64,000 nt of DNA from Candidatus Uhrbacteria bacterium RIFCSPHIGHO2_02_FULL_46_47 (GTDB lineage: Bacteria; Patescibacteriota; Patescibacteriia; GWA2-47-26), in NCBI GenBank assembly GCA_001790815.1, contig MGDU01000010.1:2621-66620 (forward strand), given 5' to 3'. This document shows, piece after piece, positions 194-63,830 of the stretch. The position numbers were made by a program, and so were the translations under genes. The first letter of the stretch is position 1. Each line of letters opens with the position of its first letter. The notes under the pieces were generated by a model. The model ran no database searches. It was not told the DNA's origin and saw only the letters and a list, made by a program, of their open reading frames with translations.

Positions 194-904
194 ATGCGCA
201 ATATCAATTTCTATAATGGAGGATTTTATCACATTTATAATCGCGGTGCATTAAAAGAACCGATTTTTTTAGAAGTGAATGACTATGTGCGATTTGTGCA
301 TGATCTGTACGAATTTAACGATGTAAATTATACTATTGATTTTCGGAAGATAACAGGAAGCTCAGCTTCCGTTGCATCCACGGAAGCTGAGCTTCCGAGC
401 ATTAAAAAGCCGCAGCGTGAGCCGGTGGTGGCGATCATATCATGGTGCTTGATGCCAAATCATTTTCATCTTTTCTTACAACAGCTGAAGGATGGTGGTA
501 TAAGTTTTTTTATGCATAAACTCGGCACCGGATACACCAACTATATTAATCGAAAATATGAAGAGCGGAGCGGACACCTTTTTCAAGGAAGATTTAAGGC
601 AAAACATATTGGGCAAGAAGGATATTTTTTACATATTTCGCGTTATATTCATCTGAATCCTGTGGATTTGATTGAGTCAGGATGGAAAGAAGATGGGATC
701 AAAGATTGGAATAAAATACAAGAATTTTTGGAAAATTACCGTTGGTCTAGTTACCAAGATTGGGTTGGGAAGAAAAATTTTCCATCTGTGTTGAATTTGA
801 ATGGAGTGGAGAAGATTTTTGAAGGTGCAGAAAAATATACAAGGTTTATGAAAGAATGGGCAACTGGAAATTATCAGCCGATAAAAAGTTTAGTTGCGGG
901 ATAA
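194..904 (+). CDS. REP-associated tyrosine transposase (RAYT, Y1 HuH transposase, IS200-like)
   Basis: Motif I FYHIYNRG, HuH motif MPNHFHLFL, catalytic-Tyr region SRYIHLNP. Start moved from 158 to the Met preceding motif I; about 17 aa (ITGSSASVASTEAELPS) between motif I and HuH are encoded by an inserted REP doublet. Confidence 0.8.
   Translation: MRNINFYNGGFYHIYNRGALKEPIFLEVNDYVRFVHDLYEFNDVNYTIDFRKITGSSASVASTEAELPSIKKPQREPVVAIISWCLMPNHFHLFLQQLKDGGISFFMHKLGTGYTNYINRKYEERSGHLFQGRFKAKHIGQEGYFLHISRYIHLNPVDLIESGWKEDGIKDWNKIQEFLENYRWSSYQDWVGKKNFPSVLNLNGVEKIFEGAEKYTRFMKEWATGNYQPIKSLVAG
356..396. repeat. REP-like palindrome doublet (family A, GGAAGCTCAGCTTCC) in-frame inside the RAYT gene
   Basis: Two 15-bp palindromes in inverted orientation separated by 11 nt; same element at 909-948 and 62243-62279. 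Confidence 0.8.
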
Positions 905-15367: not shown

Positions 15368-16763
15368 GTGTATGAAGGAAGTAGTAATATCTATCCTCCA
15401 GGTATTTGCCAAGCTCATTTTGCAAAAATATAAACCCACTATTGTCGCTATAACCGGTTCGGTTGGAAAAACGTCAACCAAAGAGGCAATTTACGCGGTT
15501 CTTGCTTCAAAATTTTCCGTACGCGCGACGCCCAGAAATTATAATAATGAATTGGGCGTACCGCTGACTATAATTGGAGCAGGACTTAGCCCTGAGCGTG
15601 AAAGGGCTAAGTCCTTGTTTCTTGGAAAGTCACCTTTTCGCTGGTGTAGAGTATTTTGCAGAGCATTGTGGCAAATTATCATGCCTGCGCGCTATCCGGC
15701 AATATTAGTGCTGGAGATGGGAGCAGATCGGCCAAAAGACATACAAAAACTCGTAAAACTTGCTCCGCCAAAAATTGGGGTGGTAACTGCTATTGCGCCA
15801 GTGCATACTGAATTTTTTGGCGATGTGGAAAAAGTGGCGCGTGAAAAAAGGCGTCTTGTTGAAGCAGTGCCAAAGCAGGGGACAGTGGTATTAAATATAG
15901 ATGATGAAATGGTGCGTGAGTTTGCAAAGCATGCAAAAAGTACGGTTGTTGGTTATGGAATTGAGAGCAATGAGGCAGAAGTAAGGGCAGTTGAGGTGCA
16001 TGATGATATTGAAATAGGGGGAAGCCGAACCTCCGATGCTTCGGAGGTTCGGCTTCCAGACATTGAATTAGGCAGTATTCATTTCAAAATTATAACTGAC
16101 GGCTCTGCCGTGCCCGTGCATTTGCCTAGTGTGTTGGGCCACGCCCACGTGTACGCGGCGCTTGCCGCTTGCGCAGTGGGACGCGCGTTTGGAATGCACA
16201 TGGTTGAAATTTCCCGTGCGCTGTTAAATTATGCTCCGCCTCCCGGCCGCATGCGAATTATTGCTGGCATTAAAAATACGGTGATCATTGACGATACTTA
16301 CAATGCTTCTCCGCGGGCAACTGTAGCCGCCCTTGAAACACTTGGAGGGCTAAGCCCTTTTTCAAAATCAGGGCTTAGCCCTGTGCGTTACGCCGTGCTT
16401 GGCGATATGCTGGAGTTAGGGCCTTATACAGAATCCGGCCATCGCGAAGTGGGCCGCGTTGCGGCGCAAAATGCCGATGTAGTTATTGGCGTGGGTGTCA
16501 GTGCGCAATGGCTTGTTGATGAGGCAAATAAAACCCGTCTAAATTTACCCTCTGCTGAAGGAAATTTTGTCGGGCATTTGCATACCCATGACGAAGCCGA
16601 ACATTTTTTGCAGGAGCGAATACGGCCGGGCGATGTGATACTGATCAAAGGATCTCAAAGCATGCGCATGGAGAAGCTCGTCAAAGGTCTAATGGCTGAA
16701 CCTTTGCGCGCGGATGAATTATTATGCCGACAAGAAAAAGAATGGTTGACACGACAACACTAA
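15357..16763 (+). CDS. murF: Mur ligase family protein, MurF-like (UDP-MurNAc-pentapeptide synthetase)
   Basis: P-loop ITGSVGKTSTKE and MurF-type NNELGVPLT motif. The usual N-terminal domain is missing, and it carries two in-frame family B palindromes (GLSPERERAKSL; GGLSPFSKSGLSP). Confidence 0.65.
   Translation: MKNECMKEVVISILQVFAKLILQKYKPTIVAITGSVGKTSTKEAIYAVLASKFSVRATPRNYNNELGVPLTIIGAGLSPERERAKSLFLGKSPFRWCRVFCRALWQIIMPARYPAILVLEMGADRPKDIQKLVKLAPPKIGVVTAIAPVHTEFFGDVEKVAREKRRLVEAVPKQGTVVLNIDDEMVREFAKHAKSTVVGYGIESNEAEVRAVEVHDDIEIGGSRTSDASEVRLPDIELGSIHFKIITDGSAVPVHLPSVLGHAHVYAALAACAVGRAFGMHMVEISRALLNYAPPPGRMRIIAGIKNTVIIDDTYNASPRATVAALETLGGLSPFSKSGLSPVRYAVLGDMLELGPYTESGHREVGRVAAQNADVVIGVGVSAQWLVDEANKTRLNLPSAEGNFVGHLHTHDEAEHFLQERIRPGDVILIKGSQSMRMEKLVKGLMAEPLRADELLCRQEKEWLTRQH
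15581..15615. repeat. family B palindrome in-frame in murF
   Basis: aggacttagccct-gagcgtgaa-agggctaagtcct (12-bp perfect inverted repeat). Confidence 0.75.
16347..16383. repeat. family B palindrome pair in-frame in murF
   Basis: gggctaagccc..agggcttagccctg. Confidence 0.75.
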
Positions 16764-26592: not shown

Positions 26593-26766
26593 CACCAGCC
26601 AACGCCCATTGCGCATTTTGCACATTTTTTCATTGCTTTTTTGTTTTTGTGAATGTGCTATACTGATTTACTATGGTATCTCATCTCTATAACTCATATA
26701 TTAAGCGCAAGGAGAGATTTTCGGCTGGTTATCATAATTTGTACAATTCTCTTCCATTCAACACAT

Positions 26767-26798
26767 AACAAAAATCTCACGATCGTGAGATTTTTGTT
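26767..26798. promoter_or_regulatory. perfect 32-bp palindrome with TCACGATCGTGA core
   Basis: AACAAAAATCTCACGA|TCGTGAGATTTTTGTT. Confidence 0.55.
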
Positions 26799-26942
26799 AT
26801 AAACTGCCGCGAAGTCATTAGCGCACGCCAGCTGACTTTCGCAAATTATTCACTCCATAATATCATGCGCGAAAAGGAGGTTGTGGATAAGTCTATTTCA
26901 ATATGCATATCAAATGTGATACGATGGCCACACTTATCAATA

Positions 26943-26971
26943 ACAAAAAAGTCACGATCGTGAACTTTTTG
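26943..26971. promoter_or_regulatory. palindromic operator-like site (TCACGATCGTGA core) 10 nt upstream of the wHTH/Cas2-like gene
   Basis: acaaaaaagtcacgatcgtgaactttttg; a near-identical direct copy is downstream at 27607-27638. Confidence 0.55.
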
Positions 26972-26980
26972 CGATAGATT

Positions 26981-27628
26981 ATGGCGCAGCGTTTAAAGAA
27001 TTCAAAGCAAAAGTCCGCGAAATCGCAATCCAATGCCAGCCGCGCATCTAGGAGTCGTATGCTATCATCTGCCCGTGTGTATCTTCAGGATTTTGCGCAC
27101 GAGTTCTCGGTTTTTACCGGTGCGATATCAGGACGGCATCCTATGGGTTTTGCTGAGTACGAAGATAAGTTGGTCGCGCAAGAGGCGCGTGAGCGCAAAG
27201 CGCGACTTTACGAATTAAGGCGGCGCAAATGGATTGAAACAAAAAAGATAGGGGAGCGCTTGCTTGTGCGGCTTACAAAACAGGGCTGGCAACGCGCCCT
27301 TCGCGACCAAATTCGCTGTACTTCCGTAAAATGTAAAGACGGAATTTGCATTGTGGTTTTTGATGTGCCGGAATCCGAGCGACATGTTCGCGATGCCCTG
27401 CGCGAGATTTTGCAAAGTTGTAATTTTACAATGCTGCAAAAAAGCGTGTGGGTGAGCCGCAAAGATATTATCAAGCCGCTTTGCGCGCTTTTGCAGGGCG
27501 CGAAGCTTGAGCGCTGGGTTCGCATATTGGTTGGCAAAGAGCTTACAAGTTCATTTCTTAGGCGCACTATTACGCGCGCTCAAGCATCCACCGCATCCGC
27601 GATTGCAACAAAAAAGTCACGATCGTGA
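26981..27628 (+). CDS. winged-helix + Cas2-like domain protein (PaaX-like architecture?), paralog 1
   Basis: The C-terminal GICIVVFDVPESERHVRDALREILQSCNFTMLQKSVWV matches the Cas2 beta1-alpha1..QxSV core including the conserved Asp. The N-terminal half is Lys/Arg-rich with a wHTH-like wing (KKIGERLLVRLTKQGWQ). Confidence 0.6.
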   Translation: MAQRLKNSKQKSAKSQSNASRASRSRMLSSARVYLQDFAHEFSVFTGAISGRHPMGFAEYEDKLVAQEARERKARLYELRRRKWIETKKIGERLLVRLTKQGWQRALRDQIRCTSVKCKDGICIVVFDVPESERHVRDALREILQSCNFTMLQKSVWVSRKDIIKPLCALLQGAKLERWVRILVGKELTSSFLRRTITRAQASTASAIATKKSRS

Positions 27629-27638
27629 ACTTTTTGTT
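27607..27638. promoter_or_regulatory. palindromic site (TCACGATCGTGA core) downstream of paralog 1, about 90 bp upstream of cysS
   Basis: aacaaaaaagtcacgatcgtgaactttttgtt. Confidence 0.55.
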
Positions 27639-27705
27639 ATGCATTAAATTGCACGATAATTTCCATCTACGGGTTTTGTGATAGGTTTTATGAAATTTAT
27701 GAGTG

Positions 27706-41057: not shown

Positions 41058-42710
41058 GTGGTTCAATGGTTCAATTCTAAAATAGAAAGCATTGCAGGTG
41101 CCGCGGTAATTTTGGCCGGGGCATCTTTCGCATCTAAAATTTTAGGGCTGCTGCGCAATCGCGTGCTTGCTGGCGCGTTTGGCGCTTCAGATACGCTGGA
41201 TGCTTATTATGCCGCCTTCCGCATTCCGGACGCAATTTTTCAGTTTGTGGTCTTAGGCGCGCTCTCGGCCGGGTTTATTCCGGTATTTATGGAGTTGATG
41301 GCGCACACCCCCTCACCTCAATCCTCTCCCTCAGGGAGAGGGCAGGGTGAGGGCAATTCTCAGTGGCAAGTGGCTTCAACCGTGCTAAACGCGCTCGTCA
41401 TAATTCTTGCCGTTTTTGCCACGGTCTTTGCAATTTTCGCTCCACAGCTTCAAATGCTTATTGCCCCCGGATTTAATGGCGAAAAACTCGCGCTGACCAT
41501 ACAATTCGCGCGCATCATGGCGCTTAGCCCTATTTTTTTGGGAATCTCCGCGGTATTTTCCGGAATTTTGCAATCCTATCGCCGTTTTGTAATTTACGCG
41601 CTGGCCCCGCTTTTTTATAATGTAGGCATAATTTTCGGCGCGCTTTGGCTTGTGCCGATTTTTGGAGTTTTGGGATTGGCACTTGGCGTTGTAATAGGCG
41701 CGCTAATGCACATGGCCGTGCAAATTCCAAATGTGCGCCGTGTTGGATTTCGCTGGCGGCCTATTTTAGATTTAAAAAGCCAAGCCGTACGCAAAATCGG
41801 AGTGCTTTCCATGCCGCGCTTGCTTGGTTTGGCTGTAACTCAAGTCAATTTATTCGCGATTACACTTTTAGCTTCAAAATTGTCTTCCGGAAGTTTGTCA
41901 ATATTTAATCTGGCAAATGACATTCAAAGCGTACCCATAGGACTTTTTGCGATTTCCCTTGCCACCGCCGCGTTTCCGGCCTTTTCCGAATTTGCCACGC
42001 GTAAAGATAACGATGGATTTAGAAAAAGTTTTTCTTCTACGGCGCGCCTCATTTTGTTTTTAACCATTCCATTTGCCATCCTGCTTTTGCTTTTGCGGGC
42101 CCAAGTTGTACGCGTGCTTTTGGGGTCCGGAAAATTTGATTGGGCAGATACTATAGCTACCGCGGACACGCTTGCATTTTTTAGCTTAAGTTTGTTTGCC
42201 CAGGCGCTATTGCCCCTTTTGGCACGCGCATCCTACGCATTGAAGGATACATTGTCGCCGCTTCTGGCCGGTGCCGCAGGAGTCGCGGCCAATGTCATAC
42301 TCGCTTTGTATTTTCGCGGACCTTTTGGGATTGCCGGGTTGGCGCTTGCGTTTTCATTCGCGATGCTTATAAATTTAGGGATACTTTGGCTTATGCTTCG
42401 TGCGCGTCTGCGCTCGCTTGACGAGGCGCAAATTGTTCCCGCGCTTTTTAAAATCTCCGGAGCGGCGCTGGCCATGGCACTTGTCGTGCAGGCCACAAAG
42501 TATTGGCTTGCCCCGCAAGTGAATATGCAAACCGGGGTAGGAGTTTTAACGCAAGGATTTGTCTCGGGCACCCTCGGTCTTACTGTATTTTTAATTACCG
42601 CGCTGGCCATGGGCTCAGACGAAGCCCGCGCCATTAAGAATGCTTTTACCAAGCGCCTTTTCCGCGGGAAAGATGTCCGGCCAGTGGAAATCGTGGAGCC
42701 CCGCGGATGA
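41058..42710 (+). CDS. murJ: lipid II flippase MurJ (MviN)
   Basis: GTG start; N-terminal ASKILGLLRNRVLAGAFGASDTLDAYYAAFRIPD is the MurJ signature and the protein has about 14 TM segments. A family C element is inserted in-frame (HTPSPQSSPSGRGQGEGNSQ). Confidence 0.85.
   Translation: MVQWFNSKIESIAGAAVILAGASFASKILGLLRNRVLAGAFGASDTLDAYYAAFRIPDAIFQFVVLGALSAGFIPVFMELMAHTPSPQSSPSGRGQGEGNSQWQVASTVLNALVIILAVFATVFAIFAPQLQMLIAPGFNGEKLALTIQFARIMALSPIFLGISAVFSGILQSYRRFVIYALAPLFYNVGIIFGALWLVPIFGVLGLALGVVIGALMHMAVQIPNVRRVGFRWRPILDLKSQAVRKIGVLSMPRLLGLAVTQVNLFAITLLASKLSSGSLSIFNLANDIQSVPIGLFAISLATAAFPAFSEFATRKDNDGFRKSFSSTARLILFLTIPFAILLLLLRAQVVRVLLGSGKFDWADTIATADTLAFFSLSLFAQALLPLLARASYALKDTLSPLLAGAAGVAANVILALYFRGPFGIAGLALAFSFAMLINLGILWLMLRARLRSLDEAQIVPALFKISGAALAMALVVQATKYWLAPQVNMQTGVGVLTQGFVSGTLGLTVFLITALAMGSDEARAIKNAFTKRLFRGKDVRPVEIVEPRG
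41308..41352. repeat. family C palindromic element in-frame in murJ
   Basis: cccctcacctcaatcctctccctcagggagagggcagggtgaggg. Confidence 0.8.
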
Positions 42711-42779
42711 TACGTGGGGCGGGATTGACAAAATAGGGTAAGAAGCGCAGGGTGGAAGTAGTTCCTAGGAGGAAAAATC

Positions 42780-43736
42780 ATGCAATCACGGCCAAGGCGC
42801 ACTCTCTATCAAGATAGGACATGGCTTAAGGTGCGGCTAAAGCGCGGCTTGACCGCGCCTCAGATTGCAAATCAGGTCAAAGTCAGCACGCCTACCATAA
42901 CACGATGGATCGCGATTCATGACCTTGTTGGATGTTCCTTGCGCGCGATTTGTCGCAATTATCTGAACAGACGCGCGCGGGCAACCTATGCCAATAGAGC
43001 GTGGCTTCGCGCAGAACTTGCGGCAGAACACACCTACAAAGAGATTGCCAAAAAGGTAGGCGTTTATCCGCTTACCATTGCCAATTGGGCCTTGCGGTTC
43101 AAGTTGGCTAATGGGCACCTTTCTCATACTGCCACTTGTACCTACGCCAATCAGAAGTGGCTGGCCGCCCAGATTGCGCGCGGGTTTCTTGATAGGCAAA
43201 TTGCTCACGAAACCGGCGTAACAGCTCACACTATAGAATATTGGCGCAAGCAGTTTGGCATCAGGTGCCCGCCGCGGCAGCGACCACCGAGAAATCTGAA
43301 GGAGCGGCGTGCTTTTGGGACGTGGCTTGCGCCGCGCCTGCATCGCTTAGCGCTCCCGGAGACACAAGGCGCTGCCCTTTGCGCGTATTACGCAGTAAAC
43401 GGCACTTTCTGTGAGCAGAAGCAATTGGCACAAGAGCAGGGAGTGACTCCGCATGGTATTGATTATCGCAGAACCAAAGCACTTGCGGTCATACTGGATA
43501 CCTTTGGCATGGGACAGCTCGCAAGATTTCCGGAGATAGTTAAGCGACGAAAAACACTTCAAGCGTTTGTGCCAAAGAAACAAACACACACGCTACGCAC
43601 ATATCGTGATAAGGCGTGGCTTAGGGCGCGCGTTGCGCGCAACTTATCCGACAAGCAAATCGCGAGCGAGGTTGGAAACACTAGTTTTACAACTATCGCG
43701 CATTGGCGTCGATCTTTTGGGATCACAAGGAGGTAG
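42780..43736 (+). CDS. protein built from tandem helix-turn-helix repeats (5-6 units, about 46 aa each), IS3-OrfA-like HTH
   Basis: Repeats of the form Y.N..WL...LA....K(E/Q)IA...GV...TI..W...FGI (e.g. YANRAWLRAELAAEHTYKEIAKKVGVYPLTIANWALRF). No transposase catalytic domain follows. Confidence 0.55.
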   Translation: MQSRPRRTLYQDRTWLKVRLKRGLTAPQIANQVKVSTPTITRWIAIHDLVGCSLRAICRNYLNRRARATYANRAWLRAELAAEHTYKEIAKKVGVYPLTIANWALRFKLANGHLSHTATCTYANQKWLAAQIARGFLDRQIAHETGVTAHTIEYWRKQFGIRCPPRQRPPRNLKERRAFGTWLAPRLHRLALPETQGAALCAYYAVNGTFCEQKQLAQEQGVTPHGIDYRRTKALAVILDTFGMGQLARFPEIVKRRKTLQAFVPKKQTHTLRTYRDKAWLRARVARNLSDKQIASEVGNTSFTTIAHWRRSFGITRR

Positions 43737-43893
43737 CGTTGAATTCATATGCCGACCGCGTCATCCCAGCGGCCGGCCTTATTTTTGACAATAAAGCGGT
43801 GTGGGCATTTTTTTATAAATACCGCATTCTCCAATTCGCGCGAATTGGAGAATGCATTCTGCGATTCTGCGGAATTGCGGAATGATGGCGGAA

Positions 43894-44300
43894 TAAAAAA
43901 AGCGCCCACCCCGAGAGTCCATTGGGTGGGCATTTACGCCGTGCGATCATGCAATGTGCCTGTTCCCAGGCCTGCTCCAGGTCCCACTGGAGAGAGGGCG
44001 GGCTCTCGTCGGTCTCAATGAGCCCTAGTTGCTGATGCACTTGTGGCTAGCTGTACTGTACGACCTTGCGGTCGGAAGGAGCAAATAAAGGGCGCCGGGT
44101 TCACCGCCGGTACGGCGCCCGAGAAACAATTACGGTGCGGGGAGTACCGGACTCCCACACAGAGCCGAGTCGTGCGCGTTCACGATCTCGGAGCATTCCA
44201 GCACGCCTAGTTGGCTCCCTTGCGAGAGTTGACCGCGCATCGGTCGTGCCGGCGGCCATTTTAAGGCCCACACATTTTTCTTATTTTTGACTTTTACTTC
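43894..44300 (-). ncRNA. candidate structured ncRNA of about 400 nt, family unassigned (RNase P RNA-like size, motifs inconclusive)
   Basis: Minus-strand consensus -35 TTGACA (44331-44336), 17-nt spacer, -10 TAAACT (44308-44313). The 0.6-kb gap has no credible ORF, is GC-rich and full of perfect hairpins including GNRA/GGAA tetraloops. It ends in a strong minus-strand terminator (43894-43931). Confidence 0.4.
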
Positions 44301-44307
44301 TGAATGC

Positions 44308-44336
44308 AGTTTAGCATAATCTGAATGCCTTGTCAA
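44308..44336 (-). promoter_or_regulatory. sigma70-like promoter (-35 TTGACA / -10 TAAACT) driving the minus-strand ncRNA
   Basis: The palindromic core CTTGTCAAG also supplies TTGTCA as a -35 for the plus strand, with TATGGT as a -10 just before lepA. Confidence 0.45.
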
Positions 44337-44366
44337 GGGGGGTAGAAATGGGGTATGGTGGGAGAC

Positions 44367-46337
44367 ATGGAACAATCGAAAATTCGGAATTTTTGCATTA
44401 TCGCCCATATTGATCATGGAAAGTCCACGCTCGCGGATCGGTTTTTGGAATTGACCGGAACAGTAGAAAAGCGGCAGATGAAAGAACAGCTTTTGGATCA
44501 GATGGATATTGAACGCGAGCGCGGCATCACTATCAAACTCGCTCCAGTCCGCATGAACTACGTACTACATACTACCCCCTACGTACTTAACCTAATTGAC
44601 ACCCCCGGCCACGTTGACTTCACTTACGAAGTTTCGCGTTCACTGGCGGCAGTGGAAGGCGCGATTTTACTGGTTGATGCAACTCAAGGCGTGCAAGCCC
44701 AAACTATTGGTAATCTTTATCTTGCGCTAGAGCAAAATCTCACAATTATTCCAGTGGTAAATAAAATTGATTTGCCCAGTGCCGATGTTGCTAAGACAAA
44801 GGCAGAACTCATGCATTTAATCGGATGCAAAGAAGAGGAGATTTTGGCAGTTTCCGGACGAACTGGTGAAGGTGTGCCGGAATTGTTGGAGGCGATTGTG
44901 GAACGCGTGCCAGCCCCTCACCCCAACCCTCTCCCACAAGGGGAGAGGGAGTTACAGAAATACCCCACTCCCTTAATGGGAGGGGATAAAGGGGGGGGTG
45001 TTTCGCTTCGGGCCTTAATCTTTGACTCCATTTATGACACGTATCGCGGAGTGGTGGCGTATGTGCGGGTATTTGACGGTGAAATAAAAAAGGGCGAGAA
45101 AATCATTTTCATGGCCACCAAGGCGCAAAGCGAAGCGCTGGAAGTTGGATTTTTCAAACCAAAATTTGTTCCCTCCGATTCACTTGGAGCCGGTGAGATC
45201 GGTTATATTGTGACTGGGCTTAAAGATATTGCCGGATGCCGCGTTGGAGATACTATTACGGGCTACACGCTACACGCTACAAGCTACACGGTTGAACCCC
45301 TTCCCGGCTATAAAGAAGTAAAACCCATGGTGTTTGCCGGAATTTTTCCAAAAGTAGGGGATGAGTATTCGCAACTGCGCGAGGCCATGGGAAAACTCAA
45401 ACTCAATGACGGCGCGCTTAGCTATGAGCCGGAAAAATCCACTGCGCTGGGATTTGGATTCCGCTGCGGATTTTTAGGACTTTTACATTTGGAAATTGTA
45501 GAAGAGCGTTTGCGTCGCGAGCATAACGTTGAAGTAATTACAACAGTTCCATCTGTGGCGTATCGGGTTAGCAAAACTGATGGTCAAGTGATGATAATCA
45601 AAGGCGCGCAGGAATTGCCTGATCAAAATTATATTCAAAAAATTGAAGAGCCGTGGGTCAAAATTGATGTGGTGGTGCCAAAAAAATACATTGGCGGAGT
45701 GATGCAGTTGGTACAAGAGAAAAGGGGAGTGTATGTGAATACGGAGTACATGCTACCCTCACCCCAACCCTCTCCCATAAGGGGCGAGGGAGAAAATCAG
45801 GTTCCCTCTCCCTCCATGGGAGAGGGAGATTCGGCCATGGACGAATCGGGTGAGGGGCGCGTAATTTTGCATTACGAACTCCCGCTTGCCTCAATTCTTG
45901 TGGATTTTTATGATAAACTCAAAAGCGTTTCTTCTGGTTATGCCTCGCTCAATTATGAATTGACCAAATACAAGGAAGCAGATGTGGTGCGACTTGATAT
46001 TTTAGTGGCTGAAGATCAGGTTGAGGCGCTGGCCACGGTTGTTTATAGCGATAGCGCGCAAGACTCGGGTCGTAAAATTGTGGAGGCGCTTAAAAAAACT
46101 TTGCCGCGCCAGCAATTTGAAATTAAAATCCAGGCCGCGCTGGGCGGAAAAATTATTGCTTCCGAACGCATTTCACCTTTGCGCAAAGATGTGACGGCCA
46201 AGCTTTATGGCGGCGATGTGACGCGCAAAATGAAACTTTTGGAAAAACAGAAAAAAGGCAAGAAAAAAATGGCGGCCATGGGCCACGGGGCAGTGGATAT
46301 TCCACCAGCGGCCTACCTTGCGGTACTGAAACGTTGA
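44367..46337 (+). CDS. lepA: elongation factor 4 (LepA) with two in-frame palindromic insertions
   Basis: MEQSKIRNFCIIAHIDHGKSTLADR (G1), DTPGHVDF (G3), NKID (G4). Family C insertions encode PAPHPNPLPQGERELQKYPTPLMGGDKGGGVS and LPSPQPSPIRGEGENQVPSPSMGEGD... Start taken at the homologous Met (ORF track 44355). Confidence 0.9.
   Translation: MEQSKIRNFCIIAHIDHGKSTLADRFLELTGTVEKRQMKEQLLDQMDIERERGITIKLAPVRMNYVLHTTPYVLNLIDTPGHVDFTYEVSRSLAAVEGAILLVDATQGVQAQTIGNLYLALEQNLTIIPVVNKIDLPSADVAKTKAELMHLIGCKEEEILAVSGRTGEGVPELLEAIVERVPAPHPNPLPQGERELQKYPTPLMGGDKGGGVSLRALIFDSIYDTYRGVVAYVRVFDGEIKKGEKIIFMATKAQSEALEVGFFKPKFVPSDSLGAGEIGYIVTGLKDIAGCRVGDTITGYTLHATSYTVEPLPGYKEVKPMVFAGIFPKVGDEYSQLREAMGKLKLNDGALSYEPEKSTALGFGFRCGFLGLLHLEIVEERLRREHNVEVITTVPSVAYRVSKTDGQVMIIKGAQELPDQNYIQKIEEPWVKIDVVVPKKYIGGVMQLVQEKRGVYVNTEYMLPSPQPSPIRGEGENQVPSPSMGEGDSAMDESGEGRVILHYELPLASILVDFYDKLKSVSSGYASLNYELTKYKEADVVRLDILVAEDQVEALATVVYSDSAQDSGRKIVEALKKTLPRQQFEIKIQAALGGKIIASERISPLRKDVTAKLYGGDVTRKMKLLEKQKKGKKKMAAMGHGAVDIPPAAYLAVLKR
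44914..45000. repeat. family C palindromic element in-frame in lepA (1 of 2)
   Basis: cccctcaccccaaccctctcccacaaggggagagggag...gggaggggataaaggggggggtg. Confidence 0.8.
45756..45857. repeat. family C palindromic element in-frame in lepA (2 of 2)
   Basis: ccctcaccccaaccctctcccataaggggcgagggag...ctccatgggagagggag...gggtgagggg. Confidence 0.8.
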
Positions 46338-46488: not shown

Positions 46489-48315
46489 ATGGAAAAGAAT
46501 TGGGTACTTTTGGAAAACGCGCCGGAGGATTGGCAAGGTCAAATGCCAGAGGTGTCTGCTATTTTGCGGCAGATTTTGTGGACTCGTGGATTGCGAACTA
46601 AGGCCGAGGCAGAACAATTTTTACATCCTAGTTTTGAAAAGGATCTGCATGATCCTTTTTTGTTTAAGGACATGGAAAAAACAGTGGCGCGGCTGTTTGC
46701 GGCAATTGAGAAAAAGGAGAAAATTTTTGTGTATGGCGATTATGACGCGGATGGCGTACCGGGCGCGGCTATTTTGAAAACTACCCTGGACGCGCTTGGC
46801 GCGGTTACGGATATTTATATTCCGCATCGCGAAAAAGAAGGATATGGACTAAATAGCGGCGCCATTGCCTATATGGCCGAGCAAAATGGCAAGATAGTGA
46901 TTACTTGCGACTGTGGGATTAGCAATGCGTCAGAAGTGGCTGAGGCGCGCGCAAAAGGAATTGATGTAATCATCACTGACCATCATCGCATACCTGAAAT
47001 AGTACCCAAACCATTTGCAATTTTGCATCCATTAATTCCCGGAGAAAAATATCCGAACAAGTTTTTAACCGGCGGTGGCGTGGCGTATAAGCTGGCGTGC
47101 GCGCTTTTACAAACCGCGCATAACTCCCCCCAACCCCCTCTTACCTTAAGAGGGGGAGAGGATCTTGAAGGATTTGAAAAGTGGTTGTTGGATTTGGTGG
47201 CCATATCAACTGTGGCGGATGTGGGGAAACTTCTGGATGAGAATCGAACGCTTGTAAAATATGGACTTACCGTACTTAACAAAACCCGCCGGCTAGGTTT
47301 GCAAAAACTTATTGAAGCCGCAGGAATAAAGCTGGGTGCGCTAGACACTTATTCAATCGGCTGGCAAATCGCTCCGCGTATCAATGCCGCCGGCCGCATG
47401 GATCATGCCAATGCCGCTTTTCAATTGCTGATGGCCACTGACGCGGAAGAAGCGCAGCGTCTTGCGGCACAGTTGAACGAATCAAATGTGGCGAGACAAA
47501 AGGAAACCGATCGCGCGTTAAAGGAGGCGAGGGAACAAATTATGAAGGGATTACTCTCACCTCAATCCTCTCCCATAAAGGGAGAGGAAGTAACGCAACC
47601 CCCCTCGCACCTTGCGGGAGAGGGTCGGGGTGAGGGGGAATTACCGTACCTCCTTGCCGCGTATAATCCTTCCTGGAATCCCGGAGTGATTGGGTTGGTA
47701 GCTGGACGGCTTATGGAAGAATTTCGGCGGCCGGTACTTATCTGCACGCGCAATGAAGGCGGAAAATTTATGGCCTCGGCACGATCAATTTCAGAATTTA
47801 ATATTATTGAAGCGCTCGCCTCATCAAAAGAATATCTTTTGAAATTTGGCGGGCACCCCAAAGCCGCTGGTTTTTCTGTTGAAAGCGAAGAGAAATGGCA
47901 TGCACTTATTGCGCATTTGCAGGAACTCGCGCACAAAGCGCTCCATGCTGTTGATGTGCGGCCAACGCTCTATATTGACGCGGATCTTATACTTGCGCAA
48001 GTAGATTGGAATTTAGTTTCTGATGTGCAAGCGCTTGAGCCGTGCGGGGAAGGCAATCCGCGTCCGCGGTTTTTAATACATGGCATAACCGTGCTTGGAT
48101 TTGATACTGTAGGAAATGGCGGGAAGCACTTGCGTCTTACGGTTACTGATGAAACGCAAAAGCCGCGCAAAATGATTGGATTTAATTGTGGAAGCTGGTG
48201 CGAGCGGTTAAAAATCGGCGACTTGATTGATGTGGTCGTTGAAGTTGGAGTAAATGAATGGAATGGAAATCGTGATATTGAGATGCGAATTGTGGATTTA
48301 AGATTCCATCAATAA
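46489..48315 (+). CDS. recJ: single-stranded-DNA-specific exonuclease RecJ (DHH family) with two in-frame palindromic insertions
   Basis: VYGDYDADGVPGAAIL, ITDHH (DHH motif), DHHA1 region GGHPKAAG; insertions AHNSPQPPLTLRGGEDLEG and LSPQSSPIKGEEVTQPPSHLAGEGRGEGE. Confidence 0.85.
   Translation: MEKNWVLLENAPEDWQGQMPEVSAILRQILWTRGLRTKAEAEQFLHPSFEKDLHDPFLFKDMEKTVARLFAAIEKKEKIFVYGDYDADGVPGAAILKTTLDALGAVTDIYIPHREKEGYGLNSGAIAYMAEQNGKIVITCDCGISNASEVAEARAKGIDVIITDHHRIPEIVPKPFAILHPLIPGEKYPNKFLTGGGVAYKLACALLQTAHNSPQPPLTLRGGEDLEGFEKWLLDLVAISTVADVGKLLDENRTLVKYGLTVLNKTRRLGLQKLIEAAGIKLGALDTYSIGWQIAPRINAAGRMDHANAAFQLLMATDAEEAQRLAAQLNESNVARQKETDRALKEAREQIMKGLLSPQSSPIKGEEVTQPPSHLAGEGRGEGELPYLLAAYNPSWNPGVIGLVAGRLMEEFRRPVLICTRNEGGKFMASARSISEFNIIEALASSKEYLLKFGGHPKAAGFSVESEEKWHALIAHLQELAHKALHAVDVRPTLYIDADLILAQVDWNLVSDVQALEPCGEGNPRPRFLIHGITVLGFDTVGNGGKHLRLTVTDETQKPRKMIGFNCGSWCERLKIGDLIDVVVEVGVNEWNGNRDIEMRIVDLRFHQ
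47125..47161. repeat. family C-like palindromic element in-frame in recJ (1 of 2)
   Basis: ctccccccaaccccctcttaccttaagagggggagagg. Confidence 0.7.
47556..47638. repeat. family C palindromic element in-frame in recJ (2 of 2)
   Basis: ctcacctcaatcctctcccataaagggagagg...cttgcgggagagggtcggggtgaggggg. Confidence 0.8.
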
Positions 48316-61743: not shown

Positions 61744-63830
61744 TTAAAGATGAAGCAAAAAAGCGAATTGAGAAATTGCGCGAGGGAATTAATCGCTATC
61801 GATATCAGTATCATGTACTGGATAAGCTTGAAATTTCCGAAGCCGCGCTGGACTCATTAAAGCACGAGCTTTTTAAGCTGGAACAAGAGTATCCGGAATT
61901 TATCACGTCGGATTCGCCAACTCAGCGGGTTGGCGGAAAGCCTCTGCCGGAATTTAAAAAAGTGACGCATAAGGTGCCCATGCTTTCCATGGAAGATGTG
62001 TTTTCGCCGCAGGAACTTACGGCATGGCTCACAAGAATTGAGCGGCACTATCCTAATGGCCATTTTGATTTTTACGCGGAAGTTAAAATGGACGGATTGG
62101 CTGTATCGCTTATTTATAAAAATGGCATACTGCATACCGGATCTACGCGTGGAGATGGAAAAGTGGGGGAGGATGTAACGCAGAATTTGAAAACAATTGA
62201 AGCCATCCCATTGCGCTTGCGTGTACCAAGCGAATCAGAAATCCGGAAGCTGAGCTTCCCAGGGGGAAGCTCAGCTTCCTTATATCTTACAATTACCAAT
62301 GCTATTGAACACGGCGAGATTGAAATTCGCGGTGAAGCGTACATGTCCAAGAAAACTTTTGAGGAGCTTAATTACGAGCAAAAGAAAAAGGGCGAAGAAT
62401 TATTTGCCAATCCGCGCAATGCCGCCGCCGGGGCAATTCGCCAGCTGGATCCTAAAATCAGTGCCTCGCGCCGACTTTCATTTTTTGGTTATGCGCTTTT
62501 GTTTCCTCCCCTGCCTGAGGGGAGGATTAAGGAGGGGTGGGAGACCCACGAGCAAGCGCACGAACTTATAAAATTATTCGGAATTCCGGTGAATTCGGAA
62601 AATAAGCACTGTAAAACTCTTGATGACGTAGTGCAATTTCATGAGCACGTTTATAAAAAGCGTGAAAAGCTCCCATATTGGACTGATGGTATTGTCGCGG
62701 TTATAAATAATGACGCGACGTTTGAGCGGCTTGGGGCGGTTGGTAAAGCGCCGCGCGGGATGATTGCGTATAAATTTCCGGCGCAACAGGCAACCACAAA
62801 AGTAAAAGAAGTGCGCTGGCAAGTCGGCCGTACTGGCGCGCTTACGCCCGTTGCGGTAATGGATCCGGTTTTTGTGGCCGGAACAACCGTTCAGCACGCT
62901 ACCCTGCATAATATGGATGAGATTGAGCGACTTGGTCTGAAAATAGGGGATACGGTAATTTTGGAAAAAGCCGGCGACATTATTCCAAAAATTGTGAAGG
63001 TTTTGTCAAAACTGCGCACTGGCCATGAAAAAATAATCCACACGCCAACGCATTGTCCGGCTTGCGGAAGTAAGGTCACGCGCGCGGAGGGCGAGGTTGC
63101 AATAGTTTGCAATAAAAAAAATTGTCCGGCAAAACATCTGGAAAATATCACGCATTTTGTTTCCAAAAAAGCCATGGATATTGACGGACTTGGCTATAAA
63201 ATAGTGGAACAGTTAATGAATGCGGGGTTTATTGCCACGCCGGCAGATATTTATAAACTGACCAAGTCAGATTTGATTGATTTAGAACGGTTTGGCGAAA
63301 AATCCGCGGAAAATCTGATTGCCGCCATTAATAAAGCACGCACGCCCCAGCTTTCACGTTTTATTTTTGCGCTGGGTATTAAACATGTGGGTGAGGAAAC
63401 TGCGGTGGATTTGGCCAACACTTTTGGCACGCTTAAAAAAATACGCGGAGCCGCGCTTGAAGAGCTTGAAGCCGTACCGAATATCGGTGAAGTAGTGGCG
63501 CGATCATTGCACGAGTATTTTTCGGACAAGCACAATCAAAAATTAATTGATGATTTGCTTGATGCAGGGGTTAGAGCTGAAGAAGTGCATATTAGGCGCC
63601 ATCAACCTTTTACGGGAAAAACATTCGTATTGACCGGCGGCCTGGAAACCATGACGCGCGATGAAGCCAAAGAAAAAATCCGCGCCTTAGGCGGCGATAT
63701 TTCCGGCTCGGTTTCCAAAAACACCGATTATGTCGTCGTCGGCACCGACCCCGGCGACAAATACGAAAAGGCCAAAAAACTCGGAATTAAAACACTAGAT
63801 GAGAAAACGTTTCGGGGCATGCTAAAATAA
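61740..63830 (+). CDS. ligA: NAD-dependent DNA ligase LigA with two in-frame palindromic insertions
   Basis: Adenylation motif KMDG (EVKMDGLAVSL), Zn finger CPACGS..C, HhH and C-terminal BRCT (FTGKTFVLTG). Insertions: family A REP doublet (KLSFPGGSSASLY) and family C ([15 protein letters not shown]). Confidence 0.9.
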   Translation: MIKDEAKKRIEKLREGINRYRYQYHVLDKLEISEAALDSLKHELFKLEQEYPEFITSDSPTQRVGGKPLPEFKKVTHKVPMLSMEDVFSPQELTAWLTRIERHYPNGHFDFYAEVKMDGLAVSLIYKNGILHTGSTRGDGKVGEDVTQNLKTIEAIPLRLRVPSESEIRKLSFPGGSSASLYLTITNAIEHGEIEIRGEAYMSKKTFEELNYEQKKKGEELFANPRNAAAGAIRQLDPKISASRRLSFFGYALLFPPLPEGRIKEGWETHEQAHELIKLFGIPVNSENKHCKTLDDVVQFHEHVYKKREKLPYWTDGIVAVINNDATFERLGAVGKAPRGMIAYKFPAQQATTKVKEVRWQVGRTGALTPVAVMDPVFVAGTTVQHATLHNMDEIERLGLKIGDTVILEKAGDIIPKIVKVLSKLRTGHEKIIHTPTHCPACGSKVTRAEGEVAIVCNKKNCPAKHLENITHFVSKKAMDIDGLGYKIVEQLMNAGFIATPADIYKLTKSDLIDLERFGEKSAENLIAAINKARTPQLSRFIFALGIKHVGEETAVDLANTFGTLKKIRGAALEELEAVPNIGEVVARSLHEYFSDKHNQKLIDDLLDAGVRAEEVHIRRHQPFTGKTFVLTGGLETMTRDEAKEKIRALGGDISGSVSKNTDYVVVGTDPGDKYEKAKKLGIKTLDEKTFRGMLK
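62243..62279. repeat. family A REP palindrome doublet inserted in-frame in ligA
   Basis: ccggaagctgagcttcc-caggg-ggaagctcagcttcc, identical in type to the RAYT-flanking elements. Confidence 0.85.
62505..62543. repeat. family C-like palindromic element in-frame in ligA
   Basis: cctcccctgcctgaggggaggattaaggaggggtgggag. Confidence 0.75.

What the first reader, a model, noticed from the sequence alone, without database searches (positions are those of the whole stretch)
42780..43855. A protein made only of 5-6 tandem IS3-OrfA-like HTH repeats, followed by a perfect 32-bp palindrome and GCGGAAT repeats
The 318-aa ORF is a concatenation of about 46-aa units (WL..L.......IA...GV...TI..W...FGI) resembling the DNA-binding HTH of IS3/IS911 OrfA. 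No catalytic or other domain follows. Tandem HTH arrays could wrap or bend DNA in a TALE-like or excisionase-like way. Immediately downstream is GCATTCTCCAATTCGC|GCGAATTGGAGAATGC (43824-43855), then repeated GCGGAAT motifs, a plausible binding target.
Basis: partly seen in the sequence, partly recalled or inferred. Interest (0 to 1): 0.5.

Follow-up and report, generated by a model that had tools for sequence, protein, structure and literature searches.

The report
Multi-HTH protein beside a borrowed operator
The gene encodes a real, uncharacterised DNA-binding protein built from four homing-endonuclease-type helix-turn-helix units and a sigma-factor region-4-like module, but the palindrome beside it belongs to a palindrome family found across CPR bacteria that usually sits next to a small ArsR-type repressor gene, so it is probably not this protein's own target.

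Summary
The sequence features are real. ORF 42780-43736 (+, 318 aa, good RBS) is identical to a hypothetical protein of Candidatus Uhrbacteria RIFCSPLOWO2_01_FULL_47_24. The perfect 32-bp palindrome (43824-43855) and three GCGGAAT copies are where stated.

The protein has four ~45-aa HTH units, not five or six. A different central module is homologous to primary sigma-factor region 4. There is no catalytic domain.

The same unit forms arrays of 2-11 copies in thousands of protein clusters. Many carry HNH or LAGLIDADG nucleases, so the link is to homing-endonuclease DNA-binding arrays, not IS3 OrfA. The subfamily with the sigma-4-like module is very rare (about 11 clusters) and under purifying selection (dN/dS 0.19-0.37). 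Its neighbours here are murJ and lepA, with no transposase, so it is not an IS remnant.

The palindrome is one member of a palindrome family found across CPR genomes (consensus ATTCGCCAATTCGC|GCGAATTGGCGAAT). In 15 reference loci an ArsR-family gene lies 9-54 bp away. None of the 119 loci fetched encodes a multi-HTH protein. The GCGGAAT repeats are the right arm of a second, degenerate copy.

Best reading: a nuclease-free HTH-array regulator, next to an operator or hairpin that belongs to another regulator. Moderate interest.

The parts
42766..42771 (+). Ribosome-binding site AGGAGG, 7 nt before the ATG
   Evidence: Read directly from the sequence.
42780..43736 (+). ORF of 318 aa. Architecture: HTH unit x3, sigma-region-4-like module, HTH unit x1. 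No catalytic domain.
   Evidence: ORF. (100% identical to NCBI hypothetical protein A3B21_02900, Candidatus Uhrbacteria). (only HTH-type matches). (AF2, mean pLDDT 72.9).
42804..42938 (+). HTH unit 1 (aa 9-53)
   Evidence: Unit HMM, i-E 4e-19. Helices 13-21, 26-33 and 37-46.
42984..43118 (+). HTH unit 2 (aa 69-113), starting with the TYANRAWL motif
   Evidence: Unit HMM, i-E 9e-21. Invariant ATYANRAWL in alignment A1.
43140..43274 (+). HTH unit 3 (aa 121-165)
   Evidence: Unit HMM, i-E 4e-22.
43275..43598 (+). Central module (aa 166-273): RRAFGxWLxPRL helix, a helix-turn-helix homologous to region 4 of primary sigma factors, and an FPEI tail. The recognition helix is degenerate in this copy (TPHGIDYR where sigma has TRERIRQI).
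43599..43733 (+). HTH unit 4 (aa 274-318)
   Evidence: Unit HMM, i-E 1e-19.
43824..43855 (.). Perfect 32-bp palindrome. It contains ATTCTCCAATTCGC|GCGAATTGGAGAAT, which differs at 2 positions from the CPR-wide 28-mer consensus ATTCGCCAATTCGC|GCGAATTGGCGAAT.
   Evidence: 2 substitutions from consensus. (same 16-bp core in >119 reference loci, 53 with arms of 10 nt or more, mostly Patescibacteria). (an ArsR-like gene next to it in 15 loci).
43854..43884 (.). Second, degenerate copy of the palindrome (ATTCTG-CG-ATTCTG|CGGAAT-TG-CGGAAT). Two of the three GCGGAAT motifs form its right arm. Its three arm mismatches are G.U pairs on the + strand RNA.
   Evidence: the repeat finder D2, 73% identity at 30-bp spacing. 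TRF period 30 x2 and period 8 sub-repeats. The + strand fold forms both hairpins, z = -5.3.
43888..43894 (+). Third GCGGAAT copy, directly before a run of seven A
43895..43931 (-). Terminator-like hairpin GCCCACCC-N12-GGGTGGGC, followed on the minus strand by GC and a run of seven U. On the plus strand it is followed only by AUUU. It may end a convergent minus-strand transcript, and perhaps also the ORF's mRNA.
   Evidence: Read from the sequence. Present in both folds. The pattern scan did not list it because its loop is longer than 8 nt.

Best explanation
The ORF encodes a stand-alone, sequence-specific DNA-binding protein, most likely a transcription regulator.

- It is built from a tandem array of homing-endonuclease-type helix-turn-helix units that has no nuclease. 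In place of one it carries a module derived from region 4 of a primary sigma factor.
- Inferred mechanism: it binds as a monomer, and the four three-helix units, joined by flexible 10-15 aa linkers, each contact a short stretch of major groove. Together they would read a long, non-palindromic site.
- In most family members the sigma-4-like module keeps the residues that read the -35 hexamer. It could therefore add a TTGACA-like contact or touch RNA polymerase. In this copy that helix has diverged.
- The adjacent palindrome and GCGGAAT repeats are a separate element. They form a double copy of a palindrome found across CPR genomes, made of GCGAAT hexamers at 8-bp spacing. That palindrome is most likely the operator of a small ArsR-family repressor encoded outside this window. 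Here it lies between the 3' end of the ORF and a convergent minus-strand terminator, where it may also act as an RNA hairpin.

Shown: the architecture, the homology, selection, the gene neighbourhood, and the distribution of the palindrome. Inferred: DNA binding, the mode of binding, the regulatory role, and that the ArsR-like protein binds the palindrome.
For: Architecture:
- Four units plus a sigma-4-like module.
- AF2 gives separate three-helix bundles with linkers of pLDDT below 50.
- P0005 and P0006 keep TRER(V/I)RQI, and P0002 and P0004 keep GER(I/V)RQI.

Kinship:
- The best PHROG match is an HNH endonuclease family, E 3e-17.
- Exhaustive HMMER finds 2294 representative clusters with E up to 0.001. 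Of the top 151 proteins, 39 carry a C-terminal segment of one cluster whose exemplar P0011 matches Pfam HNH. Seven fall in two clusters with LAGLIDADG-type members. 53 have no non-repeat segment of 80 aa or more. Nine share the sigma-4-like module.

Functional gene:
- dN/dS is 0.19-0.37 among homologues.
- The architecture is conserved at 27-39% identity.
- Members have their own RBS, and in other loci a TTGACA promoter and a terminator.

Not an IS:
- Neighbours are HD_4, TSP_3, MurJ and LepA.

Palindrome belongs elsewhere:
- The 16-bp core was found in more than 119 reference loci. 53 have extended arms, and these are mostly Patescibacteria.
- An ArsR-family gene (Pfam HTH_5, E 5.5e-11) lies 9-54 bp from it in 15 loci. 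In 8 loci two core copies 320-400 bp apart bracket a homologous small ORF; 7 of these are among the 15 significant HMM hits.
- In L096 the palindrome centre lies 23 nt upstream of a TGGTATAAT -10 element.
- No multi-HTH unit was found in any of the 119 loci.
Against: - No experiment or DNA-binding data exist for any family member.
- The family's target sequence is unknown.
- The window copy has lost the -35-reading residues of the sigma-4-like helix, so that part of the mechanism may not apply here.
- Palindromes of the same superfamily occur within 0.1-1.7 kb of family genes in three or four loci: the window; L017, with the identical 16-bp core; L002; and L001. This leaves room for a real link between protein and palindrome. 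However, Logan contigs break at such palindromes, which inflates the apparent association.
- No ArsR-like gene lies in this 64-kb window, so its presence in this genome is assumed.
- At this site the palindrome is not next to a recognisable promoter.
Confidence: 0.5

Rival explanations
1. One reading: the multi-HTH protein binds the adjacent palindrome and GCGGAAT repeats. Its several HTH units would each engage one GCGAAT-like hexamer of the 8-bp-spaced array, for autoregulation or DNA wrapping.
For: The array offers nine GAAT/ATTC-centred hexamers, most at 8-bp spacing, 88 nt after the stop codon. Related palindromes lie near other family genes. L017 has the identical core CAATTCGCGCGAATTG about 900 bp downstream. 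L002 and L001 have ATTCGCTTATTCG(T|A)... 0.7-1.7 kb upstream.
Against: The same palindrome occurs in at least 53 reference CPR loci, none of which has a multi-HTH gene within the fetched stretch (at most 8 kb). An ArsR-like gene lies next to it in 15 of them. A palindrome suits a symmetric dimer such as an ArsR/SmtB protein, not an asymmetric monomeric array. None of the family-linked palindromes sits at a family gene's promoter. Contig-end bias inflates the co-occurrence. L013, L014 and L015 have no such palindrome.
Confidence: 0.12
2. Selfish remnant: the gene is a free-standing homing-endonuclease relative that lost its nuclease. It persists as a mobile cassette or a decaying passenger. It might serve as a target-site-binding 'immunity' factor rather than a host regulator.
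For: The units are shared with HNH and LAGLIDADG endonucleases. Family genes sit at different places between housekeeping genes: murJ/lepA, tsaD (twice), metK, an MPG-type DNA glycosylase gene and a tRNA-synthetase gene (PF00579). They occur as tandem paralogues. In L013 the gene lies between 97%-identical direct repeats of about 196 bp that include the first 38 nt of tsaD. The family is very rare and patchy.
Against: dN/dS of 0.19-0.37 and a conserved nuclease-free architecture with a sigma-4-like module across about 11 clusters argue for a retained function. No intron, intein or nuclease partner is seen. The gene is identical across 10 contigs from independent assemblies of one population.
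Confidence: 0.2
3. RNA-polymerase-directed factor: the sigma-4-like module binds the beta-flap or competes with sigma region 4 at -35 elements. The protein would act as a promoter-specific competitor or appropriator, with the HTH array supplying the address.
For: The central module is homologous specifically to primary sigma region 4, including the 4.1-like helix and the C-terminal LKDF tail. The -35-reading residues are kept in P0002, P0004, P0005 and P0006. An ECF sigma gene is the divergent neighbour in L002 and L016.
Against: The window copy has lost the recognition residues. There is no evidence of RNAP contact. The ECF sigma neighbour is seen in only 2 of 8 loci, and those two may be orthologous.
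Confidence: 0.15
4. Decayed IS3-family remnant: an OrfA HTH fragment duplicated by slippage.
For: Weak generic matches to transposase HTH models only: HTH_Tnp_1 E 3e-4, IS630 model 29 bits against a cut-off of 100.
Against: Every transposase model scores below its cut-off. There is no transposase ORF or terminal inverted repeat. The units are diverged at DNA level. Homologues are under purifying selection.
Confidence: 0.02

Closest known systems
WhiA (DUF199): a degenerate LAGLIDADG scaffold plus a C-terminal HTH
   Different: There is no LAGLIDADG fold here. The scaffold is a string of HTH units, so this is an analogy of design, not homology. WhiA is widespread and conserved, while this family is very rare.
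Tandem HTH DNA-binding arrays of HNH/LAGLIDADG/GIY-YIG homing endonucleases (PHROG 8446; NUMOD-type modular domains)
   Same: The repeat unit is homologous and has the same tandem arrangement.
   Different: There is no nuclease domain, no intron or intein context, and a sigma-4-like module is inserted in the array. Pfam NUMOD1 itself does not match.
   Different: Regions 1-3 are absent, so it cannot be a sigma factor. The recognition helix is degenerate in the window protein.
Multi-HTH target selectors and bipartite HTH domains (Tn7 TnsD/TniQ; paired-like domains of Tc1/mariner and IS630 transposases)
   Same: Several HTH modules in one chain read one long site. The Mos1 N-terminal domain appears among weak fold matches. 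The IS630 model matches weakly. PMC10293859 came up in a search for 'multiple HTH domains' in Tn7 target selectors (not read in full).
   Different: No transposase or TniQ core is present, and no transposon context.
ArsR/SmtB repressors with inverted-repeat operators at their own promoters (relevant to the palindrome only)
   Same: The CPR palindrome lies next to a roughly 90-aa HTH_5 gene. Its centre lies 23 nt upstream of the -10 element in L096. Autoregulation through imperfect 12-2-12 inverted repeats is typical of this family (own knowledge).
   Different: Binding has not been shown. The palindrome is longer (28-38 bp, four hexamers) and often perfect. In this window there is no ArsR gene and no nearby promoter.

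Membership tests
IS3-family OrfA / IS remnant | Match to the IS3 OrfA HTH model (Pfam PF01527 HTH_Tnp_1) above its gathering score | tested here: not met
   21.4 bits against a cut-off of 24.1, E 3e-4. Generic HTH models score higher.
IS3-family OrfA / IS remnant | Adjacent DDE transposase ORF (OrfB), or any transposase | tested here: not met
   Neighbours are HD_4, TSP_3, MurJ and LepA. The IS630, IS21 and IS481 models match only the HTH part, far below their cut-offs.
IS3-family OrfA / IS remnant | Terminal inverted repeats flanking the element | tested here: not met
   Only short pairs of 71-83% complementarity, at a level expected by chance, flank the ORF.
Sigma-70 family sigma factor | Region 4 (-35 recognition HTH) | tested here: met
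Sigma-70 family sigma factor | Region 2 (core binding, -10 recognition) | tested here: not met
   No Sigma70_r2 match. The rest of the chain is HTH units.
Homing endonuclease with a tandem HTH DNA-binding array | Homologous tandem HTH units | tested here: met
   phrog_8446 (HNH endonuclease), E 3e-17 over two units. 39 of the top 151 relatives carry a C-terminal segment of the cluster whose exemplar P0011 matches Pfam HNH, and 7 fall in clusters with LAGLIDADG-type members.
Homing endonuclease with a tandem HTH DNA-binding array | Nuclease domain (HNH, LAGLIDADG, GIY-YIG, PD-(D/E)XK) | tested here: not met
   No such match in Pfam, NCBIfam or PHROGs beyond the HTH part.
Homing endonuclease with a tandem HTH DNA-binding array | Mobile behaviour: presence/absence between related genomes, or an intron/intein context | tested here: inconclusive
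   Family genes lie at different loci, and L013 has a 196-bp flanking duplication. No relative with an empty murJ-lepA site could be fetched.
TALE-like modular repeat DNA readers | Near-identical 33-35 aa repeats that form a superhelix, with one or two hypervariable base-reading residues | tested here: not met
   The units are ~45-aa three-helix HTH bundles, diverged from one another and separated by disordered linkers.
ArsR/SmtB-type operator (the palindrome) | Inverted repeat next to, and overlapping the promoter of, an ArsR-family gene | tested here: inconclusive
   Met in 15 other CPR loci. In this window there is no ArsR-like gene and no convincing promoter at the site.
ArsR/SmtB-type operator (the palindrome) | Binding by the repressor | not testable with these tools
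   Needs EMSA or footprinting.
Intrinsic terminator (the palindrome) | G+C-rich stem followed by a U run | tested here: inconclusive
   The scan lists it only on the minus strand, with a weak tail GTATTTATAA. There is no U run after it on the plus strand. The clear U7 terminator is the separate hairpin at 43895-43931 on the minus strand.

The most novel reading that the evidence does not exclude
The family is a natural 'addressable sigma-4': a modular array of HTH units, of the kind that gives homing endonucleases their long, evolvable target sites, tethered to a primary-sigma region-4 module. The protein would occupy or mimic the -35 contact at chosen promoters and so redirect or block RNA polymerase. 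More broadly, the thousands of nuclease-free arrays of 2-11 such units would be an unrecognised class of modular DNA readers for long sites.
Probability: 0.15. Interest if true: 0.7.

Novelty: new variant of a known kind. Interest (0 to 1): 0.4.

Why it matters
It would add a second, independent case, after WhiA, of a homing-endonuclease DNA-recognition scaffold reused without its nuclease. Here the scaffold is fused to a piece of the housekeeping sigma factor. This occurs in CPR bacteria, whose regulation is almost unknown.

The broader set of tandem HTH arrays (2294 representative clusters, many with no other domain) has only generic annotation. It could be a source of long-site DNA binders.

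The by-product may matter more. A palindrome conserved across many CPR lineages lies next to a small ArsR-type gene. That gives a directly testable regulator-operator pair for organisms that cannot be cultured.

Tried and rejected
- Relatives of the family in reference genomes, JGI metagenome contigs and viral contigs: four scans returned no confirmed relative. The family is known only from the Rifle population and one other sequencing series (SRR223878xx-SRR223881xx).
- PDB entry 8VD6, 'CAP repeat', was the top sequence hit of the first profile. It is a computer-designed repeat protein and was discarded.
- Rfam on the whole window and, at permissive thresholds, on 43600-44500: only one tRNA elsewhere and noise.
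- Rfam on 20 palindrome loci: only tRNAs and one SAM riboswitch. Nothing lay between the palindrome pairs, so the idea that the pairs flank an ncRNA was dropped. An ArsR-like ORF lies between them.
- Recurrent neighbours of the palindrome other than the ArsR gene: none found by clustering the flanking ORFs.
- Population variation in the intergenic region: the ten contigs are identical there, so no covariation test was possible.
- I first took the third gene of L001 for a paralogue. It is tsaD.
- Literature searches for the palindrome sequence, for tandem HTH arrays, and for CPR ArsR palindromes found nothing relevant.
Full report
**1. What is in the sequence**

The ORF 42780..43736 (+) exists, starts with ATG and encodes 318 aa. 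An AGGAGG lies 7 nt upstream of the start. The protein is 100% identical to NCBI 'hypothetical protein A3B21_02900' of Candidatus Uhrbacteria bacterium RIFCSPLOWO2_01_FULL_47_24, so the window comes from a CPR (Patescibacteria) genome of the Rifle aquifer. The same gene is seen on 22 contigs. The ten I fetched have no differences from 42780 to 44354, the ORF and the spacer downstream of it.

The palindrome GCATTCTCCAATTCGC|GCGAATTGGAGAATGC is exactly at 43824-43855. Five shuffles of the window give palindrome arms of at most 9-10 nt, against 16 here. GCGGAAT occurs at 43869, 43877 and 43888.

**2. Anatomy of the protein**

A self-comparison and a unit HMM find four significant ~45-aa units, at aa 9-53, 69-113, 121-165 and 274-318. 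The motif is TY-x-N/D-R-x-WL ... IA ... G-V/S ... TI-x-x-W ... FGI.

The stretch aa 166-273 is different. Its helix-turn-helix matches the unit only at i-E 9.4. In alignments with homologues it forms a conserved module: RRAFGxWLxPRL, then L-P-L-x-E-R-E, an HTH, and LKDFPKIA.
- A profile of this module hits only region 4 of SigA/RpoD/RpoS among all PDB sequences (best E 3e-8).
- The AF2 model (pLDDT 72.9, pTM 0.34) is a string of three-helix bundles with low-confidence linkers at 51-62, 111-123, 166-169 and 266-273.
- P0005 and P0006 keep the sigma recognition helix almost unchanged (TRERVRQI, TRERIRQI). P0002 and P0004 keep GERIRQI and GERVRQI. The window protein has TPHGIDYR.
- That these positions read the -35 hexamer in sigma-70 is established knowledge from my memory, not tested here.

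No catalytic domain is found in Pfam, NCBIfam or PHROGs.

The IS3 OrfA resemblance is generic: HTH_Tnp_1 scores 21.4 bits, below its cut-off, while HTH_23 reaches E 4e-11.

**3. Relatives**

The best PHROG family is an HNH endonuclease family (phrog_8446, E 3e-17), matched over two units.

An exhaustive HMMER search of 1.84 billion representatives found 2294 clusters with E up to 0.001 and 309 with E up to 1e-10. In the top 151 proteins the unit occurs in arrays of 2-11 copies. By clustering of the non-repeat segments and Pfam on examples:
- 53 have no other segment of 80 aa or more.
- 39 share a C-terminal segment whose exemplar P0011 matches Pfam HNH.
- 9 share another, unannotated C-terminal domain.
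- 7 fall in two clusters with LAGLIDADG-type members (P0020 matches LAGLIDADG_3).
- Others carry NUMOD3, an intein with HNH_3, or TFIIB.
- 9 share the sigma-4-like module.

One all-repeat member is a Haloquadratum walsbyi 'helix-turn-helix domain-containing protein'.

The subfamily with the sigma-4-like module has only about 11 clusters (P0001-P0007, P0014, P0036, P0061, P0152). They have 1-7 units and are 27-39% identical to the window protein.

The units are thus the DNA-binding arrays of homing-type endonucleases. This subfamily is a nuclease-free branch that acquired a sigma-4 module.

**4. A working gene, not debris**

- Among homologues dN/dS is 0.19-0.37.
- At DNA level the four units share only 26 invariant positions in the 138-column alignment of the ~135-nt units. 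TRF sees no tandem repeat in the ORF. This excludes recent slippage.
- The neighbours are dnaX, an HD_4 protein, a TSP_3 repeat protein and murJ upstream, and lepA and recJ downstream. There is no transposase, and no flanking inverted repeat beyond chance level.
- In other loci the family genes stand alone with a TTGACA promoter and a hairpin-plus-U terminator. They lie between various housekeeping genes: tsaD in L001 and L013, metK in L017, an MPG-type DNA glycosylase gene in L015, and a tRNA-synthetase gene (PF00579) in L014. They occur as tandem paralogue pairs in L001 and L002.
- An ECF sigma gene is the divergent neighbour in L002 and L016.
- In L013 the gene lies between two 97%-identical direct repeats of about 196 bp that include the first 38 nt of tsaD. 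This looks like a cassette insertion.
- These points keep a 'selfish cassette' reading alive but do not prove it.

**5. The palindrome and the GCGGAAT repeats**

TRF and the repeat finder show that 43824-43884 is a 30-bp unit repeated twice. The second copy is ATTCTG-CG-ATTCTG|CGGAAT-TG-CGGAAT. Two of the GCGGAAT motifs are simply its right arm, and a third follows at 43888. The three arm mismatches of copy 2 are all G.U on the + strand. That has a 1 in 8 chance and is not significant.

Long perfect palindromes are common in this window. Others lie at 356, 910, 16020, 26765 and 62245. Adjacency alone therefore means little.

The decisive lead came from L017, the locus of family member P0014. 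Its contig ends in a palindrome with the identical 16-bp core CAATTCGCGCGAATTG. I scanned one genome per species for this core.
- 53 loci have arms of 10 nt or more. Nearly all are Patescibacteria: Saccharibacteria, Doudna-, Colwell-, Lipton-, Jorgensen-, Wolfe-, Staskawicz-, Uhr- and Peribacteria.
- Loci with the bare core are ordinary bacteria, as expected by chance for a 16-mer in 596 Gb.
- The consensus is CCATTCGCCAATTCGC|GCGAATTGGCGAATGG: four GCGAAT hexamers at 8-bp spacing. The window copy differs at two symmetric positions. L030 carries exactly the window's variant.
- In 15 loci an ArsR-family gene of about 90 aa (Pfam HTH_5, E 5.5e-11) lies 9-54 bp from the palindrome.
- In 8 loci two core copies 320-400 bp apart bracket a homologous small ORF. 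Seven of these are among the 15 significant HMM hits.
- In L096 the palindrome centre is 23 nt upstream of a TGGTATAAT -10 element.
- No ORF in any of the 119 loci matches the multi-HTH unit.
- No other neighbour recurs, and no known RNA lies between the pairs.
- No paper holds the sequence.

The most economical reading is that this is the operator of a CPR-wide ArsR-type repressor, autoregulated as is usual for that family (own knowledge), with further sites around the genome. The window holds one such double site and no ArsR-like gene.

**6. Local setting of the site**

The palindromes lie 88 nt after the ORF's stop codon. They are followed by seven A and the hairpin GCCCACCC-N12-GGGTGGGC (43904-43931). 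On the minus strand that hairpin is followed by seven U, which makes a canonical terminator for a transcript coming from the right.

The 618-bp spacer to lepA is G+C-rich (0.57-0.61 against 0.476 for the window). It carries a minus-strand promoter-like site at 44336-44308 and folds somewhat better than shuffles (z -2.7). It has no Rfam match. It may be an unknown minus-strand RNA of about 400 nt.

The palindromes therefore sit between two converging units and not at an obvious promoter. There they may act as RNA hairpins (the + strand 3' region folds with z -5.3) or as a roadblock site. This part is unresolved.

**7. Is there still a link between protein and palindrome?**

Palindromes of the same superfamily occur near family genes in four places:
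- the window, 88 nt downstream;
- L017, identical core, about 900 nt downstream;
- L002, ATTCGCTTATTCGT|ACGAATAAGCGAAT, about 700 nt upstream, beyond the ECF sigma gene;
- L001, a near-identical copy about 1.7 kb upstream, next to a sequence that looks like a tRNA gene by eye (not scanned).

None of these is at a family gene's promoter. Logan contigs end 13-14 nt past the centre of such palindromes (L002, L011, L012, L017). Short contigs therefore tend to display their nearest palindrome. L013, L014 and L015 have none. L001 has a different perfect palindrome (GTCTTATTTTACGA|TCGTAAAATAAGAC) in the leader of both paralogues, and it is absent from the orthologous L002 leaders.

**8. Verdict**

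It is a catalytic-domain-free multi-HTH protein and not an IS remnant. But it belongs with homing-endonuclease HTH arrays, it carries a sigma-4-like module, and the neighbouring palindrome most likely serves another regulator.

The closest design analogue is WhiA, a nuclease-dead LAGLIDADG scaffold plus an HTH that acts as a monomeric transcription factor (PMC3240954). This protein is not a member of that family.

Novelty: a new variant of a known kind. Interest: moderate (0.4). The CPR-wide ArsR-palindrome pair is a by-product worth following up in its own right.

Noticed in passing
window 43824-43884; loci L018-L136 (for example L096 6857-7209, L071 5362-5744): A palindrome family found across CPR genomes (consensus CCATTCGCCAATTCGC|GCGAATTGGCGAATGG, four GCGAAT hexamers at 8-bp spacing). 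An ArsR-family gene of about 90 aa lies 9-54 bp from it in 15 reference loci, and two copies bracket such a gene in 8 loci. This is probably a conserved repressor-operator pair. No paper in the library holds the sequence.
   Followed up: partly
window 43895-44354 (minus strand): The 618-bp spacer before lepA is G+C-rich (0.57-0.61 against 0.476). It has a minus-strand promoter-like site at 44336-44308 and a minus-strand hairpin-plus-U7 terminator at 43931-43895. This is a candidate ncRNA of about 400 nt (fold z -2.7) with no Rfam match.
   Followed up: partly
window 26765-26800, 26940-26975, 27605-27640: Three copies of another 36-bp palindrome (ATAACAAAAATCTCACGA|TCGTGAGATTTTTGTTAT and variants). 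Two lie upstream of a gene with a PaaX_M/Cas2-like domain (26981-27628) and one overlaps its 3' end. The gene sits after an 800-bp intergenic region. They look like that regulator's own operators.
   Followed up: partly
window 41323-41341 (murJ), 44928-44948, 45769-45789, 45805-45825 (lepA), 47567-47587 (recJ), 10371, 28879, 28915, 60986: Short hairpin elements CCTCTCCC-N3-5-GGGAGAGG lie inside long conserved ORFs. They are read in frame as inserts such as SPQPSPIRGEGE and PNPLPQGERE. This recalls the in-frame palindromic elements of Rickettsia. Similar elements occur in the homologue loci (L001 7346-7366, L015).
   Followed up: partly
window 356-396, 909-947, 16020-16057, 62245-62279: A family of long perfect hairpins built on GGAAGCTGAGCTTCC. 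By coordinates, three of them (356-396, 16020-16057, 62245-62279) fall within long ORFs.
   Followed up: no
L013 162-357 and 1641-1836 (approximate): Family gene P0006 lies between two 97%-identical direct repeats of about 196 bp. Each holds a terminator, a MITE-like palindromic element and the first 38 nt of tsaD. This suggests a cassette-like insertion or duplication at the 5' end of tsaD. L001 carries its two paralogues at the same place, upstream of tsaD.
   Followed up: partly
L001 4904-4931 and 6120-6155: A different perfect palindrome (GTCTTATTTTACGA|TCGTAAAATAAGAC) sits in the leader of both tandem paralogues in L001. It is missing from the corresponding leaders in L002.
   Followed up: no
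L002 1-28, L011 and L012 ends, L017 2313-2338: Logan contigs end 13-14 nt beyond the centre of long perfect palindromes. Such palindromes break these assemblies and are over-represented at the ends of short contigs. This is a bias to keep in mind when judging co-occurrence.
   Followed up: yes
L002 2-628 (-), L016 3-584 (-): An ECF-type sigma factor gene (Sigma70_r2 plus r4_2) is transcribed divergently from the family gene in two loci.
   Followed up: partly
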